From the NCBI GenBank assembly GCA_041661795.1, contig JBAZTS010000002.1:102263-155971 (forward strand): a stretch of DNA of 53,709 nucleotides. The letters are read 5' to 3'. The DNA is from Minisyncoccota bacterium (lineage in GTDB: Bacteria > Patescibacteriota > Minisyncoccia > UBA6257 > JAGOQP01). A program made the position numbers and the translations under genes. Of this stretch, positions 12,085-48,142 are shown in pieces (positions within the stretch are counted from its first letter, which is position 1; every line of letters begins with the position of its first letter). Below the pieces are notes generated by a model, which was not told where the DNA came from, did not search any database, and saw nothing but the letters and a program-made list of their open reading frames with translations.

Positions 12085-12090
12085 AGATGG

Positions 12091-12118
12091 TATACCGTAT
12101 ATCGTATACCGTATATCG
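12091..12118. repeat. Perfect tandem duplication, 2 x 14 nt (TATACCGTATATCG)
   Basis: Copies at 12091-12104 and 12105-12118, between the two permease genes. Confidence 0.85.
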
Positions 12119-15705: not shown

Positions 15706-15802
15706 GATACCAATATACCAATGGTGCGAATGATACTAATAAATACTAAAATTTTCGCATCCATTCGTATCATTAGTAATGTTAGTATATTAGTATCATA
15801 GT
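15706..15802. repeat. About 97-bp word-array element upstream of dnaG (copy A)
   Basis: Ten hexamer words at about 9-bp spacing. Left: TACCAA x2, TGCGAA, TACTAA x2. Centre: AAAATTTT. Right: TTCGCA, TTCGTA, TTAGTA x3. Ends 3 nt before the ATG at 15806. Confidence 0.85.
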
Positions 15803-17540: not shown

Positions 17541-17636
17541 GATACCAACATACGAATGATGCGAATGATACAAATAATACGAAAATTTTAGTATCCATTT
17601 GTATCATTAGTAAAGTTAGTATATTAGTATCATAGT
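17541..17636. repeat. About 96-bp word-array element upstream of rpoD (copy B, paralog of 15706-15802)
   Basis: Aligns by eye end to end with copy A with few substitutions. Shares GCGAATGATAC...GTATCATTAGTAA-GTTAGTATATTAGTATCATAGTT. Ends 6 nt before the ATG at 17643. Confidence 0.85.
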
Positions 17637-18957: not shown

Positions 18958-20805
18958 ATGAATTATTTCCACAAACTGCGGGAACAGTTTTTAGATTTTT
19001 TTAAAGAAAGGGGACACACCATAGTTAAATCCTCATCTTTAATCCCTGACGATTCCTCAGTTCTTTTGACGACCGCTGGGATGCAACAGTTCAAAAGATA
19101 TTACACCGGAGAGTTTAATCCAGAATCGGATTTTGGATCAAGAAGAACGACATCTTTACAAAAATGTTTTAGAACCAGTGACATAGAGGAAGTAGGAGAC
19201 GATACCCATCTGACGTTTTTTGAAATGATGGGAAATTTTTCATTTGGAGATTATTTCAAAAAAGAGGCAATTGTCTGGGGATACGAATTTATTACTAATA
19301 TTTTACAGATAAATCCCGAAAGAGTTTATGTGACTGTTTTTGAGGGAGATGAAGAGAATAAAATTCCCAAGGACGAGGAGTCGTATTCTATTTGGTATAA
19401 AGAAATTGGCATTCCCCAAGAAAGGATTTTTTACGGAAACAAAAAGGATAATTTTTGGGGACCGACAGGAAATGAAGGTCCTTGTGGTCCGACAACCGAA
19501 ATTTATGTAGCTCCGTCAGCCAAGGATGCTTTGGCGCAGAATGGGGTGGAAATATGGAATATTGTTTTTAACGAGTTTTATAAGACGCAGACTAACGCGG
19601 ATATCACGCAGATCAACGCGGAAAATAGTCAGCACAAGTCAGCGTCCAGTCGGCGTCAGTCCGCGGTCTACCGAAAGGTAGACACGCCGGGGATAGACAC
19701 AGGAATGGGATTTGAAAGATTATTGGCAACTTTAGAAGGAGTTGAAAATGTTTTTGAAACATCCGCTTTTGCTCCGATAATTAAATTGTTAAACGAGCAA
19801 GCCACTGGAATTTCACAAAGAGAATTAAGAATATTAGCTGACCACATCAGGTCGTCTTCATTTTTAATTGCCGATGGTATAGAGCCGTCAAACAAAGGAG
19901 CGGGTTATGTTTTAAGAAGGTTACTAAGAACAATAATTGCAATCAAGATAAAAAATGACATCCATTCTGATATTTTTGAAACTGGTTATAAAAAGGTAAA
20001 AGAAATGTTTGGAGAAATTTATCCGGAGATAAAAGATGAGAAAAAAATAATTGGTATCTGGCAGGAGGAAAATTCAAAATTTCAAGAAAGCATTAATAGG
20101 GGAATAAAGGAATTATCTAAATATAAGAATATATCCGGGATTGACGCCTTCTATATATACGAAACATTCGGGCTTCCATTTGAATTAACCAAAGAACTAG
20201 CTCCTCAGGAGGCGGTCAAAAACATTTCTTATGAGGAATTTGAAAAAGAATTTCAAAAACACCAGGAAGTTTCCCGAGCAGGAGTTGAAAAAAAGTTTGG
20301 AGGACACGGACTTATTTTGGACACTGGAGAACTTAAAGCCGGAAATGAAGAAGAGCTTAAAAAAGTTTTGGGATTTCACACGGCTACTCATCTTTTGCAG
20401 TGGGCTTTGAGAAAAGTTTTAAACTCAGACATTCACCAAATGGGCTCTGACATAAATTTTGAACGCCTAAGATTTGATTTTAATTTGGACAGAAAAATGG
20501 CTCCAGAAGAAATAAAACAAGTGGAGGATTTTATTAATGAACAAATAAATAAAAATCTTCCTGTATATTTTAAAGAAATGCCAAAAAGTGAAGCGGAAAA
20601 AGTAGCTTTGTCTTTTTTCAAAGAAAAATATCCTGATATTGTTAGAGTTTATTTTATCGGTTCGGAAGAAAGCGGAGGAGTGTTGAGCGCCGAGTTTTGT
20701 GGCGGACCTCATGTTGAATATACCGGACAAATTGGCAAGTTTAAAATATCCAAGGAGGAATCGGTTGGAAAGGGAGTGAGGAGGATTAGAGCAACAACCG
20801 AATAA
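18958..20805 (+). CDS. alaS: Alanine--tRNA ligase, compact form with no C-Ala domain
   Basis: N-terminal FLDFFKERGHTIVKSSSLIPDDSSVLLTTAGMQQFK, GIDTGMGFERL, editing-domain HTATHLL and CGGPHV. Only 615 aa. Confidence 0.9.
   Translation: MNYFHKLREQFLDFFKERGHTIVKSSSLIPDDSSVLLTTAGMQQFKRYYTGEFNPESDFGSRRTTSLQKCFRTSDIEEVGDDTHLTFFEMMGNFSFGDYFKKEAIVWGYEFITNILQINPERVYVTVFEGDEENKIPKDEESYSIWYKEIGIPQERIFYGNKKDNFWGPTGNEGPCGPTTEIYVAPSAKDALAQNGVEIWNIVFNEFYKTQTNADITQINAENSQHKSASSRRQSAVYRKVDTPGIDTGMGFERLLATLEGVENVFETSAFAPIIKLLNEQATGISQRELRILADHIRSSSFLIADGIEPSNKGAGYVLRRLLRTIIAIKIKNDIHSDIFETGYKKVKEMFGEIYPEIKDEKKIIGIWQEENSKFQESINRGIKELSKYKNISGIDAFYIYETFGLPFELTKELAPQEAVKNISYEEFEKEFQKHQEVSRAGVEKKFGGHGLILDTGELKAGNEEELKKVLGFHTATHLLQWALRKVLNSDIHQMGSDINFERLRFDFNLDRKMAPEEIKQVEDFINEQINKNLPVYFKEMPKSEAEKVALSFFKEKYPDIVRVYFIGSEESGGVLSAEFCGGPHVEYTGQIGKFKISKEESVGKGVRRIRATTE
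19585..19666. repeat. GC-rich inverted word array embedded in-frame in alaS
   Basis: ACGCAG/ACGCGG words at 19585, 19595, 19606 and 19616 (spacing 10/11/10). Centre AAAAT. AGTC(N)GC words at 19627, 19637, 19648 and 19658 (spacing 10/11/10), containing CAGCGT/CGGCGT/CCGCGG, roughly the reverse complement of the left words. Confidence 0.8.
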
Positions 20806-20825
20806 CGTATACCGTATACCGTATA
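20806..20825. repeat. Tandem CGTATAC heptamer repeat (about 3 copies) just after the alaS stop
   Basis: CGTATAC CGTATAC CGTATA at 20806-20825. Shares the TACCGTATA word with 12091-12118. Confidence 0.8.
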
Positions 20826-35987: not shown

Positions 35988-36001
35988 CAAAACACAAACA
36001 A

Positions 36002-36072
36002 TACGAACATATGCGAATACCGCAAATAAGATAAGAATTTCGTGGTGTTCGTGTAAATTAGCATAGTTAGCA
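36002..36072. repeat. Intergenic inverted word array upstream of rplE
   Basis: Left words TACGAA (36002) and TGCGAA (36012). Right words TTCGTG at 36039 and 36048, TTAGCA at 36058 and 36067 (spacing 9/10/9). Ends 7 nt before the ATG at 36080. Confidence 0.7.
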
Positions 36073-36079
36073 TTATTTT

Positions 36080-47749: not shown

Positions 47750-48142
47750 ATGTCTTTTTTGCCTTCAAAATACCTCTGGACAAACCATTCCAAATTTAAG
47801 ATGGCTTTTTATAACCTTTCGGAAAGTAGGGTATTAAGAGTCATAAAATCGCCTCTGCGAACAGAGGAGGGAATAGCTCCTGATACTATAGCCGTTATGC
47901 AGCCAACTTCTTATAAAACCAAAAACGGCAAAAGAACATGGAATCAGGAAATATGGGTGATGTACTGCCTGCAAGGCAGGAAATCCGAAAAAGTCAGTCA
48001 GCGTCAGTCAGCGTTAAGTCAGCGCAAGTCCGCGATAAGGATTGTATCGGCTTGGAGATATCCCGGGCAGACAAAAGTCAGAGGAGAGTTGCCATCAGAA
48101 GTGCTAAGAGAAATTATGCAAGCCCACACACTCATAGAATAA
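47750..48142 (+). CDS. Hypothetical small protein (DUF4258-like pattern) carrying an in-frame word-array insert
   Basis: WTNHSKFKMAFYNLSESRVLRVIKSP...EIWVMY...IRIVSAWRYPG. The heptad-like insert SQRQSAL SQRKSAI is encoded by the array at 47996-48034. Confidence 0.5.
   Translation: MSFLPSKYLWTNHSKFKMAFYNLSESRVLRVIKSPLRTEEGIAPDTIAVMQPTSYKTKNGKRTWNQEIWVMYCLQGRKSEKVSQRQSALSQRKSAIRIVSAWRYPGQTKVRGELPSEVLREIMQAHTLIE
47996..48034. repeat. Half word array (4 x AGTC(A/C)GCG) in-frame inside the ORF
   Basis: AGTCAGCG at 47996, 48006 and 48017, and AGTCCGCG at 48027. Spacing is 10/11/10, identical to the phasing and words of the right arm of the alaS insert. Confidence 0.8.

What the first reader, a model, noticed from the sequence alone, without database searches (positions are those of the whole stretch)
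19585..19666. Helically phased inverted word array inserted in-frame in the catalytic core of AlaRS
Location: between the conserved WNIVFNEF and GIDTGMGFERL segments of alaS. Other AlaRS enzymes have only about 15-17 residues there, as far as I recall. This gene carries roughly 25 extra residues (NADITQINAENSQHKSASSRRQSAV), encoded by locally GC-rich DNA.

Architecture:
- Four ACGC(A/G)G words at 19585, 19595, 19606 and 19616.
- An AAAAT centre.
- Four AGTC-N-GC(G/A) words at 19627, 19637, 19648 and 19658, whose cores (CAGCGT, CGGCGT, CCGCGG) approximate the reverse complement of the left words.
- Both arms have 10/11/10-nt spacing, about one word per helical turn.

Comparison: this is the same grammar (4-5 words, A/T centre, 4-5 inverted words) as the AT-rich intergenic elements of this window, but it lies inside an essential gene and preserves the reading frame. 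It is reminiscent of Rickettsia palindromic elements, which insert in-frame into genes. I do not know of this phased word architecture having been described.
Basis: seen in the sequence. Interest (0 to 1): 0.7.

Follow-up and report, generated by a model that had tools for sequence, protein, structure and literature searches.

The report
Mobile palindromic insert inside alanyl-tRNA synthetase
An 84-base palindromic repeat has been copied, in frame, into a surface loop of an essential enzyme of a tiny groundwater-type bacterium. It belongs to a large and apparently undescribed family of such repeats that sit inside housekeeping genes across the Patescibacteria (CPR).

Summary
Window 19585-19668 holds four ACGCRGA words, an A-rich centre and four inverted AGTCNGCG words, spaced 10/11/10 in each arm. 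That is 4 x 21 nt, or 28 codons. It is a true insertion: 75 of 120 AlaRS homologues have the minimal loop, and solved AlaRS structures have no counterpart. An AlphaFold model places it as a disordered tip of a beta-hairpin just before motif 3.

It is one copy of a stereotyped family. A profile built only from other genomes hits it at E=4e-19. The same profile finds a second half-copy in frame in another gene at 47991-48035. In named genomes nearly all hits were Patescibacteria.

About 62% of copies lie in frame in housekeeping genes. Most are in one orientation and one reading frame (TQTNAD...SQRKSA). An identical 87-nt copy sits in two unrelated genes, bL25 and NusA.

Best reading: a selfish element that works like Rickettsia palindromic elements and is translated as a harmless loop. 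Its copying machinery is unknown. The 10/11 spacing is better read as a 7-codon unit than as helical phasing. I found no published description.

The parts
18958..20805 (+). alaS, a short CPR-type alanyl-tRNA synthetase of 615 aa and the host gene
   Evidence: ORF. Pfam tRNA-synt_2c scores 5.5e-111 and tRNA_SAD 1.1e-16. The closest named homologues are Wolfebacteria and Paceibacterota AlaRS.
19585..19668 (+). The inserted element: 84 nt = 4 x 21 nt = 28 codons, AlaRS residues 210-237 (TQTNADITQINAENSQHKSASSRRQSAV)
   Evidence: A family profile built without the window hits 19584-19667 on the + strand at E=4e-19 with 63.6 bits; the - strand scores 47 bits. The segment is absent from 75 of 120 homologues and from solved AlaRS structures. 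AF2 pLDDT is below 50 for residues 212-233.
19585..19622 (+). Left arm: four ACGCRGA words starting at 19585, 19595, 19606 and 19616
   Evidence: The family consensus word is ACGCAGAC.
19623..19626 (+). A-rich centre (AAAT)
   Evidence: The family centre is 4-5 nt, mostly A on the coding strand.
19627..19666 (+). Right arm: four AGTCNGC(G/A) words starting at 19627, 19637, 19648 and 19658
   Evidence: The family consensus word is AGTCMGCGT.
47991..48035 (+). Second family copy, right arm only: four AGTC(A/C)GCG words spaced 10/11/10, read in the same frame (SQRQSALSQRKSA)
   Evidence: The profile hits at E=3.4e-9, covering model positions 44-85.
47750..48142 (+). Host ORF of the second copy: a small conserved CPR protein of 130 aa ('ISAWRYPG' family, no Pfam match). 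The insert lies in its hypervariable loop.
   Evidence: Homologues P0121-P0240 carry 3-5 residues there in the minimal forms; the closest homologue, P0122, has SQRQSALSRRESA.
47966..47981 (+). Small GC hairpin CTGCCTGCAAGGCAGG, standing where the left arm of the second copy would be. It belongs to a second repeat type.
   Evidence: The same CCTGCC-loop-GGCAGG type occurs in L299. As 'LPAGRQGG' it occupies the same AlaRS loop in P0041, P0050 and P0108.

Best explanation
The segment is one copy of a non-autonomous, selfish DNA repeat family of the Patescibacteria (CPR).

Anatomy. Each element is about 84-87 nt. It is built from eight copies of an 8-9 nt word: four ACGCAGAC words, an A-rich centre, and four inverted AGTCMGCGT words. 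These are arranged as four 21-nt (7-codon) units.

What happened here. A copy was pasted into alaS at the tip of the beta-hairpin just before motif 3, replacing a 5-residue turn. It is most likely kept in the mRNA and translated as a 28-residue polar, disordered loop that neither helps nor harms AlaRS.

Why it survives in genes. Its length is a multiple of three. Its preferred reading is free of stop codons and hydrophilic. Its hairpin is kept weak on the sense strand.

Shown versus inferred. Shown: it is an insertion, it belongs to a family, identical copies occur in unrelated genes, copies in genes have biased orientation and frame, and the insert is a disordered loop in the model. Inferred: it is translated and neutral; the conserved words are the recognition sites of an unidentified copying machinery or host protein; and its recurrence at this loop reflects frequent insertion filtered by selection.
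For: Insertion:
- The loop is 16 residues in most homologues and 39 here.
- Filled and empty alleles compare as YK|NKNGE|F against YK|27-28 aa|F/Y.
- Solved AlaRS structures have no counterpart.
- The AF2 model shows a disordered hairpin tip.

Family:
- The external profile hits at E=4e-19 and finds a second half-copy in the window.
- All 17 Patescibacteria hits in the genome scan have the 10+11 spacing.
Complete elements follow the spacing 10,11,10,(11|12),10,11,10 in 24 of 30 cases.

Mobility:
- A 100% identical 87-nt copy lies in frame in bL25 (L277) and NusA (L308/L209), with no other similarity between the loci.
- Only 1 of 121 bL25 sequences has the insert.
- AlaRS sequences with the insert are interspersed with insert-free sisters.
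- The copy in P0005 has decayed towards A/T.

Fit to coding sequence:
- 66 of 106 elements lie in long ORFs.
- 27 of 30 host ORFs tested match housekeeping Pfam families.
- The A-rich strand is the coding strand in 55 cases against 7.
- 51 of 65 in-ORF copies read the right arm as SxRxSA, and 37 of 65 use the full frame seen here.

Constraint at the DNA level and not the peptide level:
- The words stay fixed while spacers vary.
- Other frames give different peptides, such as ADQRG and RRPTQ.
- Copies also occur outside long ORFs with the same 10/11/10 layout.
Against: - No transposase, target-site duplication or conserved target sequence was found. Flank direct repeats average 3.47 nt against 3.14 +/- 0.16 in shuffles.
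- The insert replaces 5 codons and does not simply add sequence, which ordinary transposition does not predict.
- Recurrence at exactly the same AlaRS position in about 8-10 lineages could also mean target specificity or allele spread by recombination.
- Translation was not tested.
- The strong frame bias and the stereotyped peptide could mean the peptide itself is selected.
- Words remain intact in diverged orthologous copies such as L257 and L293. That suggests some ongoing constraint or homogenisation and not pure neutrality.
Confidence: 0.72

Rival explanations
1. The word arrays have a cis-acting function for the host. They would be a phased array of binding sites, or a mismatch-studded hairpin, read by a host protein. 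Possible roles are a recombination hotspot, a nucleoid or regulatory protein site, a ribosome pause signal or an RNase target. The element would be kept for that role and not be merely selfish.
For: - The words are near-invariant across CPR phyla while spacers drift.
- Watson-Crick pairing at the central base of each word is depleted below chance: 17 observed against 26.7 expected, and G-C 6 against 16. T is avoided there even at synonymous sites. The structure therefore looks shaped and not decayed.
- Spacing is almost fixed.
- AT-rich analogues sit directly upstream of the dnaG and rpoD start codons.
Against: - Copies sit in unrelated positions of unrelated genes with no common context.
- Orthologous genes commonly lack the element.
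- Some copies decay towards A/T.
- There are only 1.5 copies in this 53.7-kb window.
Confidence: 0.13
2. The insert is a selected protein module. On this reading the 28-residue TQTNAD...SxRxSA peptide does something, for example as an interaction or phosphorylation motif, and the DNA palindrome is a by-product of how the module spreads.
For: - The peptide is stereotyped.
- 51 of 65 in-ORF copies read the right arm as SxRxSA, and orientation is biased 55 to 7.
- Host genes are enriched in information-processing housekeeping genes.
Against: - Conservation follows the DNA words and not the residues. Orthologous copies L257 and L293 differ at many residues while the words are kept.
- About a fifth of in-ORF copies use other frames and give unrelated peptides.
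- Copies also exist outside long ORFs.
- The segment is predicted to be disordered.
- It is absent from close orthologues of an essential enzyme.
Confidence: 0.08
3. The element is an intervening sequence that is removed or skipped. The hairpin would be cut out of the mRNA, or bypassed by the ribosome, so the peptide is never made.
For: - The element can fold. The window region gives z = -4.1 and the family mean z is -4.8.
- From my own knowledge, CPR genomes are known for intervening sequences in rRNA genes, and mobile GC-rich palindromes in a yeast mitochondrion are bypassed during translation.
Against: - If the element were removed, frame and stop codons would not matter. Yet the length is a multiple of three, in-ORF copies are stop-free in the host frame, and orientation and frame are strongly biased.
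- The sense-strand hairpin is systematically weaker than the antisense one: -35.7 against -43.2 kcal/mol, in 25 of 28 elements. It has less than half the stability of a perfect palindrome at -81.3.
- No Rfam family matches.
Confidence: 0.05
4. The insert arose locally. Slippage or tandem duplication of a 21-nt unit in a tolerant loop would have produced it, with no relation to other loci.
For: - Each arm is a 2 x 21 nt tandem repeat; the left arm units are 81% identical.
- Some relatives carry extended arms of 6 or more words, as in L219 and L255.
Against: - A profile built from 96 elements of other genomes recognises it at E=4e-19.
- The same architecture recurs in over 100 loci.
- Identical copies occur in unrelated genes.
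Confidence: 0.02

Closest known systems
Rickettsia palindromic elements (RPE-1 to RPE-10; Ogata et al. 2000, as summarised in PMC10969869)
   Same: - Short palindromic repeats dispersed in a reduced genome.
- A large share inserted in frame in unrelated housekeeping genes.
- They encode a family-specific peptide placed where the host fold tolerates it.
- No transposase or clear target duplication is known.
   Different: - Different phylum: Patescibacteria, not Rickettsia.
- Shorter: 84-87 nt against about 100-150 bp.
- Built from eight copies of one 8-9 nt word in a fixed 10/11/10 layout (4 x 21 nt), with a mismatched centre in each word pair. I do not know of such a word architecture for RPEs.
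- Sequence similarity to RPE consensus sequences was not tested.
Bacterial MITEs that fuse in frame with host ORFs (ERIC, BOX, Coxiella QMITE1; PMC10969869, PMC5896051)
   Same: - Small and non-autonomous.
- Carry inverted arms and occur in multiple copies.
- Occasionally translated as part of host proteins.
   Different: - No target-site duplication was detected and no parent insertion sequence is known.
- In-frame residence is the majority state here (66 of 106) and not the exception.
- The insert replaces 5 codons at the alaS site.
REP / REPIN elements mobilised by RAYT transposases (PMC3733652; Bertels and Rainey 2011, from my own knowledge)
   Same: - Two inverted repeat units form a hairpin of about 70-110 nt.
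- Spread within a genome without target duplication.
- The palindromes are imperfect.
   Different: - REPs are extragenic and carry a conserved GTAG or CGTC head. These elements are mostly intragenic and have no conserved head.
- Presence of a RAYT gene was not examined.
[quoted passage not shown]
   Same: Coding repeats whose DNA has dyad symmetry, spread between genomes and translated.
   Different: - PARCELs are 25-residue amphipathic units in long tandem arrays, in surface or unknown-function ORFs.
- Here a single 28-residue polar insert sits inside a conserved housekeeping enzyme.
Mobile GC clusters of yeast mitochondria and the 'byp' elements derived from them (from my own knowledge)
   Same: GC-rich palindromic mini-elements in an AT-rich genome that land inside protein-coding genes.
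   Different: Byps break the reading frame and are skipped by the ribosome. These elements keep the frame and are most likely translated.

Membership tests
Rickettsia palindromic elements (RPE) | Short palindromic repeat present in several dispersed copies | tested here: met
   The element has inverted arms and is 84 nt long. The window holds a second half-copy. Over 100 loci were found elsewhere, with several per contig in L146, L128 and L177.
Rickettsia palindromic elements (RPE) | Inserted in frame in protein-coding genes and encoding a conserved peptide | tested here: met
   66 of 106 elements lie in long ORFs, with the stereotyped peptide TQTNAD..SxRxSA. Hosts include AlaRS, bL25, NusA, LigA, RecG and DnaG.
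Rickettsia palindromic elements (RPE) | Insertion point compatible with the host protein fold (surface loop) | tested here: met
   AF2 gives pLDDT below 50 at a beta-hairpin tip. The inserts in bL25 and the small protein also lie in hairpin loops of variable length.
Rickettsia palindromic elements (RPE) | Sequence homology to an RPE family consensus, and occurrence in Rickettsia | tested here: not met
   The host is a Patescibacteria genome. Similarity to RPE consensus sequences could not be computed because no RPE sequences were on hand. The element is therefore filed as 'works like' and not as a member.
Rickettsia palindromic elements (RPE) | Retained in mRNA and protein | not testable with these tools
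   This needs metatranscriptome or metaproteome data.
MITE | Terminal inverted repeats, size about 50-500 bp, no coding capacity of its own | tested here: met
   The whole element consists of two 38-nt inverted arms.
MITE | Target-site duplication flanking the element | tested here: inconclusive
   The longest direct flank repeat averages 3.47 nt against 3.14 +/- 0.16 in shuffles. There is only a weak A at -2 and T at +2. At alaS, 5 codons are replaced.
MITE | A parent insertion sequence with matching ends that supplies transposase | not tested
   No whole-genome census was possible. No transposase was noticed beside the copies examined.
REP / REPIN | Extragenic location | tested here: not met
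   62% of copies lie inside long ORFs.
REP / REPIN | Conserved GTAG or CGTC tetranucleotide at the 5' end of each unit | tested here: not met
   The first base of the outer word and the flanks are variable.
REP / REPIN | A RAYT (Y1 HUH transposase) gene in the same genome | not tested
   This needs complete genomes.
PARCEL | 25-residue amphipathic unit in long tandem arrays | tested here: not met
   The unit is 7 residues, with four units in total. It is polar and occurs as a single insert.
Known structured RNA (Rfam) | Match to a curated covariance model | tested here: not met
   The only hit in 19480-19780 is a chance-level snoRNA match at E=4.5. At gathering threshold the whole window yields only a tRNA.

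The most novel reading that the evidence does not exclude
This is a new class of bacterial mobile element that is specialised for living inside coding sequence. On this reading its features are adaptations and not accidents. Those features are the 4 x 7-codon length, the stop-free polar reading, the strand-specific weakening of the sense hairpin by designed mismatches at the centre of every word pair, and the eight conserved words. The words would be read by a dedicated, still unknown CPR protein that copies the element, or drives its spread by recombination into empty alleles. That would explain why the same AlaRS loop is hit in many lineages. If so, a measurable part of CPR protein sequence divergence in housekeeping genes is written by this element.
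Probability: 0.3. Interest if true: 0.85.

Novelty: new variant of a known kind. Interest (0 to 1): 0.68.

Why it matters
- In-frame selfish repeats have so far been treated as a peculiarity of Rickettsia, with a few scattered MITE cases. Here the same lifestyle appears in a different and very large bacterial radiation. The anatomy is much more regular, and the hosts are core genes: aminoacyl-tRNA synthetases, ribosomal protein bL25, NusA, DNA ligase, primase, RecG, ClpB and ATP synthase gamma.
- It gives a concrete source for the unexplained insertions seen in CPR proteins.
- It warns annotators and people building alignments or phylogenies that 28-residue blocks in CPR marker genes can be mobile DNA.
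- It offers a clean system for asking how a DNA parasite is shaped by having to be translated. The identical bL25 and NusA copies show the family is or was recently active.
- The fixed words invite a search for the protein that reads them.

Tried and rejected
- Target-site duplication or target motif. The flanks of 30 complete elements show no conserved sequence and only marginal direct or inverted repeats.
- Stem covariation. The words are invariant, the spacers are no more complementary than shuffled pairs (28% against 30%), and central bases pair less than expected. A conserved stable hairpin is therefore not supported.
- Rfam gave no match.
- Phage carriage. The full-element pattern gives 0 hits in IMG/VR. 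A looser three-word pattern hits many GC-rich viral contigs, but these are plain tandem coding repeats or three-word arrays with different words.
- Non-CPR hits of the one-arm pattern in named genomes are uniform 10/10 or 11/11 tandem repeats in GC-rich genomes and are unrelated. The exceptions are L134 and L164, MAGs labelled Gammaproteobacteria that carry true elements and may be misbinned.
- Empty site for the recent bL25 insertion. The nearest homologue is only 79% identical, so the exact junction could not be fixed.
- Literature. Seven searches covered peptide strings, Patescibacteria with MITE, Saccharibacteria with palindromic repeat, and Parcubacteria with insertions. They found RPE, MITE, REP and PARCEL papers but nothing on this family.
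- The family profile does not detect the AT-rich look-alikes of the window.
Full report
**1.

Reading the window directly gives four left words: ACGCAG at 19585, ACGCGG at 19595, ACGCAG at 19606 and ACGCGG at 19616. The centre is AAAT. The four right words are AGTCAGCA at 19627, AGTCAGCG at 19637, AGTCGGCG at 19648 and AGTCCGCG at 19658.

Both arms are spaced 10/11/10. Each arm is therefore two 21-nt units, and the right arm starts exactly 42 nt after the left. The repeat finders see the 21-nt unit.

The words are not a composition effect:
- AGTCNGCR occurs 11 times against 3.5 expected, and 0 of 100 shuffles reach 11. Nine of the 11 lie in this element or in one other array.
- Chains of at least three TCNG[CT]G words at 9-12 nt spacing occur three times in the window against 0.005 per shuffle.
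- ACGCRG alone is not enriched; only its clustering is.
- Local GC is 0.53-0.58 in a 0.348 window.

**2. It is an insertion at a hairpin tip of AlaRS**

The ORF 18958-20805 is a 615-aa CPR-type AlaRS. Its nearest named relatives are Wolfebacteria and Paceibacterota.

In 120 homologues the stretch between WN(I/L)VFNE(F/Y) and DTGMG is minimal in 75 cases, typically YKEKNGxFxKxxxPG. The window has 23 residues more. Against Aquifex aeolicus AlaRS (1RIQ, 3HTZ) the match splits into two pieces that are contiguous in the crystal sequence, leaving 21 query residues unmatched at NRDE|NG.

An AlphaFold2 model has mean pLDDT 84.3. It puts residues 212-233 at pLDDT below 50, between strands 197-209 and 238-251. 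That is the tip of the beta-hairpin that precedes the motif-3 segment GIDTGMGFERL.

Comparing DNA of filled and empty alleles shows that the element replaces a 5-codon turn. The pairs were the window against P0004, and P0005 against P0009 at 88% amino-acid identity. The change is YK|NKNGE|F to YK|27-28 codons|F/Y.

**3. It is one copy of a stereotyped family**

A second array lies at 47996-48034. It has four AGTC(A/C)GCG words with the same 10/11/10 spacing and the same reading frame (SQRQSALSQRKSA). It sits in the hypervariable loop of a small conserved CPR protein.

The inserts in other AlaRS lineages have the same DNA architecture, with slightly different words such as ACGCGGAT and AATCAGCG.

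A scan of one genome per species with three AGTCAGCG words gave 88 loci:
- The 17 Patescibacteria hits all had one 10-nt and one 11-nt spacing. They came from Jorgensen-, Lipton-, Wolfe- and Saccharibacteria, Paceibacterota and Parcubacteria.
- The hits in GC-rich non-CPR genomes were uniform tandem repeats.
- In the CPR loci the element is always four words per arm, 38 nt per arm, with about 6 nt between arms.

The same pattern gave no hit in 2.9 million viral contigs.

Of 30 completely parsed elements, 24 have the spacing 10,11,10,(11 or 12),10,11,10.

A profile built from 96 elements, none from the window, finds 19584-19667 at E=4e-19. It finds 47991-48035 at E=3.4e-9, matching the right-arm half of the model only. 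It finds nothing else in the window.

**4. The family is, or recently was, mobile**

An 87-nt stretch is 100% identical between L277 and L308/L209, and the two loci share nothing else.
- In L277 it lies in frame in ribosomal protein bL25. In L308/L209 it lies in frame in NusA.
- Both contigs come from the same groundwater sample at the same coverage. L209 belongs to a Saccharibacteria MAG. That they are one genome is an inference.
- Among the 120 closest bL25 homologues plus L277, only L277 has the insert.

In a neighbour-joining tree of AlaRS with the loop masked, insert-bearing sequences are interspersed with insert-free sisters. The pairs are P0005/P0009, P0006/P0022, P0015/P0025, P0001-3/P0004, P0052/P0116, P0056/P0117 and P0055/P0062.

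The empty alleles carry the turn shared with distant outgroups, so they are ancestral. The loop has therefore been hit repeatedly, or filled alleles have spread by recombination.

A different GC hairpin type (LPAGRQGG) occupies the same loop in three further lineages. This argues that the loop is simply a permissive site.

Some copies have decayed towards A/T. In P0005 the words have become ATACGAAT and ATCAGTAT.

**5. The family is fitted to coding sequence**

Of 106 distinct elements, 66 lie in stop-free frames with at least 120 flanking codons. Of 30 such host ORFs scanned, 27 match housekeeping Pfam families:
- CCA-adding enzyme
- LigA (two)
- class-V aminotransferase (three)
- LepA (two)
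- GrpE, GatB, ScpA and PolX
- Mur ligases (two)
- RecG (two)
- bL25, PheT, DnaG and PNPase
- class I aminoacyl-tRNA synthetases (two)
- RsmH, NusA and ClpB
- another AlaRS, hit at the same loop
- ATP synthase gamma

The element has a polarity. On one strand the variable central base of the words is A or G in the left arm and A or C in the right arm, and the centre is A-rich. That strand is the coding strand in 55 cases against 7.

Frame use is also biased:
- 51 of 65 in-ORF copies read the right arm as S-x-R-x-S-A.
- 45 read the left arm as T-Q-x-N-A-D.
- 37 use the full frame seen in the window.
- When the centre is 4 nt instead of 5 nt, the left arm reads ADQRG..ADLRG while the right arm keeps its frame. 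The frame preference is therefore anchored on the right arm.

Conservation still follows the DNA words. Spacers and many residues differ between orthologous copies such as L257 and L293 while the words stay. Copies outside long ORFs have the same layout.

**6. Hairpin or array of sites?**

The arms are complementary only through the word cores: ACGC with GCGT, and GAC with GTC.
- Spacers pair no better than shuffled pairs (28% against 30%).
- The central base of each word pair forms a Watson-Crick pair less often than its base frequencies predict: 17 against 26.7, and G-C 6 against 16.
- T is almost absent at that position even where it would be synonymous.
- The recently copied bL25/NusA element has four mismatches out of four. 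The mismatch therefore belongs to active copies and is not decay.

Folding energies fit this picture:
- sense strand, mean -35.7 kcal/mol (z about -4.8)
- antisense strand, -43.2 kcal/mol, more stable in 25 of 28 elements
- perfect palindrome built from the same left arms, -81.3 kcal/mol

I read this as a palindrome kept deliberately weak, most of all on the mRNA strand. Its invariant words look more like recognition sites than stem filler. That last step is inference.

**7. On 'helical phasing'**

The fixed quantity is 21 nt, which is 7 codons, and the element is 4 x 21 nt. Looser arrays of similar words in GC-rich non-CPR contigs have three words at a uniform 9 or 10 nt. Uniform 10/10 arms are relatively commoner outside ORFs, 9 of 62 against 3 of 132.

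The 10/11 alternation is thus at least as well explained by keeping the reading frame as by the 10.5-bp DNA turn. The two readings cannot be separated with sequence alone.

**8. Most likely mechanism**

This is a selfish, non-autonomous repeat. It is copied by an unidentified machinery and lands anywhere. It survives mainly where it falls in frame, in the benign orientation, in a surface loop. It is then translated as a polar disordered loop.

Shown:
- it is an insertion
- it belongs to a family
- identical copies lie in unrelated genes
- copies in genes are biased in orientation and frame
- the insert is a disordered loop in the model

Inferred:
- it is translated
- it is neutral
- the words are binding sites
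- its recurrence at this loop reflects selection filtering frequent insertions

Not explained:
- the replacement of five codons at the alaS site
- the lack of a target duplication
- what copies the element

**9. Relation to known elements**

It works like the Rickettsia palindromic elements (PMC10969869). It is not a member of that group: the phylum, size and internal architecture all differ.
- It fits the loose definition of a MITE, but no target duplication or parent insertion sequence was found.
- It fails two defining features of REP/REPIN: extragenic location and a GTAG or CGTC head.
- It is unlike PARCELs (PMC2996958).
- No Rfam family matches.

Seven literature searches found no description of this family. 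The library does not hold subscription journals, so a prior description cannot be excluded.

**10. Caveats**

- The pattern scans were capped and were seeded with the element's own words, so counts are samples and not a census.
- ORF calls are stop-free frames and not curated genes.
- Taxonomy of the metagenome contigs was not checked.
- Two MAGs labelled Gammaproteobacteria carry true elements.
- The AlaRS tree is a simple neighbour-joining tree on identity distances.

Noticed in passing
window 15707-15800 and 17541-17634; also 35992-36073: AT-rich palindromic word arrays of about 95 nt, with words such as ATACGAAT and ATTAGTAT at a 9-10 nt period around an AATTTT centre. Two copies, similar over most of their length in the alignment, end about 10 nt before the start codons of dnaG and rpoD. 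They fold with z = -4.4 and -6.6. The grammar matches the alaS element, but the family profile does not detect them.
   Followed up: partly
window 47966-47981; L299; AlaRS P0041, P0050, P0108: A second GC-rich hairpin repeat type, CCTGCC-loop-GGCAGG, encoding peptides such as LPAGRQGG or CLQGRK. It takes the place of the left arm of the second copy in the window. In three other lineages it occupies the very same AlaRS loop.
   Followed up: partly
L238, L239, L251, L267, L315, L317, L323, L232 (next to the elements): A third repeat, AAGCCTGCCCCGTAGCGACGCGGAGCGTCTGCTT (peptide SLPRSDAERLL). It is repeatedly fused to half-elements in place of the two outer words, which suggests nested or modular insertions.
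   Followed up: no
L270:6515-8974(-) and L271:4730-6940(-): A PD-(D/E)XK_3 nuclease domain (PF13366) lies inside the ORFs of LepA and RecG. This may be another kind of mobile insertion in CPR housekeeping genes.
   Followed up: no
L303:2-3265(-): A class I aminoacyl-tRNA synthetase ORF carries a histidine-phosphatase domain (His_Phos_1, residues 610-775) between its catalytic and anticodon-binding parts.
   Followed up: no
window 19666-19683: A perfect 7-bp hairpin with a GAAA loop, GTCTACC-GAAA-GGTAGAC, directly abuts the 3' end of the element. It encodes VYRKVD of the native strand and is not conserved in P0005 or P0006.
   Followed up: no
window 20797-20825 and 12090-12118: Short tandem repeats of ACCGTAT / GTATACC. 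One array of four units lies across the alaS stop codon and the bases just after it.
   Followed up: no
L055:1404-1583, L103, L041, L021, L106 (IMG/VR contigs, GC 0.5-0.6): Multi-copy inverted arrays of three words each, such as ATCTGCGT and CCTCTGTG, at a uniform 9-10 nt period. They are sometimes nested as two array types per arm. They may be a broader superfamily of word palindromes outside the CPR.
   Followed up: partly
L219:3595.. and L255:142..: The right arm of the element is extended to six or more AGTCAGCG words, so the arrays can grow by 21-nt units.
   Followed up: no
L001 vs L312 (orthologous alaS inserts): The two inserts share junctions and the last word (GAGTCCGCGTTA). All left words differ in concert: ACGCGGAT in one and ACGCAGAC in the other. 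This hints at homogenisation of the words within an element or with other copies in the genome.
   Followed up: no
L134 and L164: True 4+4 elements occur in MAGs labelled 'uncultured Gammaproteobacteria' (GC 0.49 and 0.36). These are either misbinned CPR contigs or occurrences outside the CPR.
   Followed up: no
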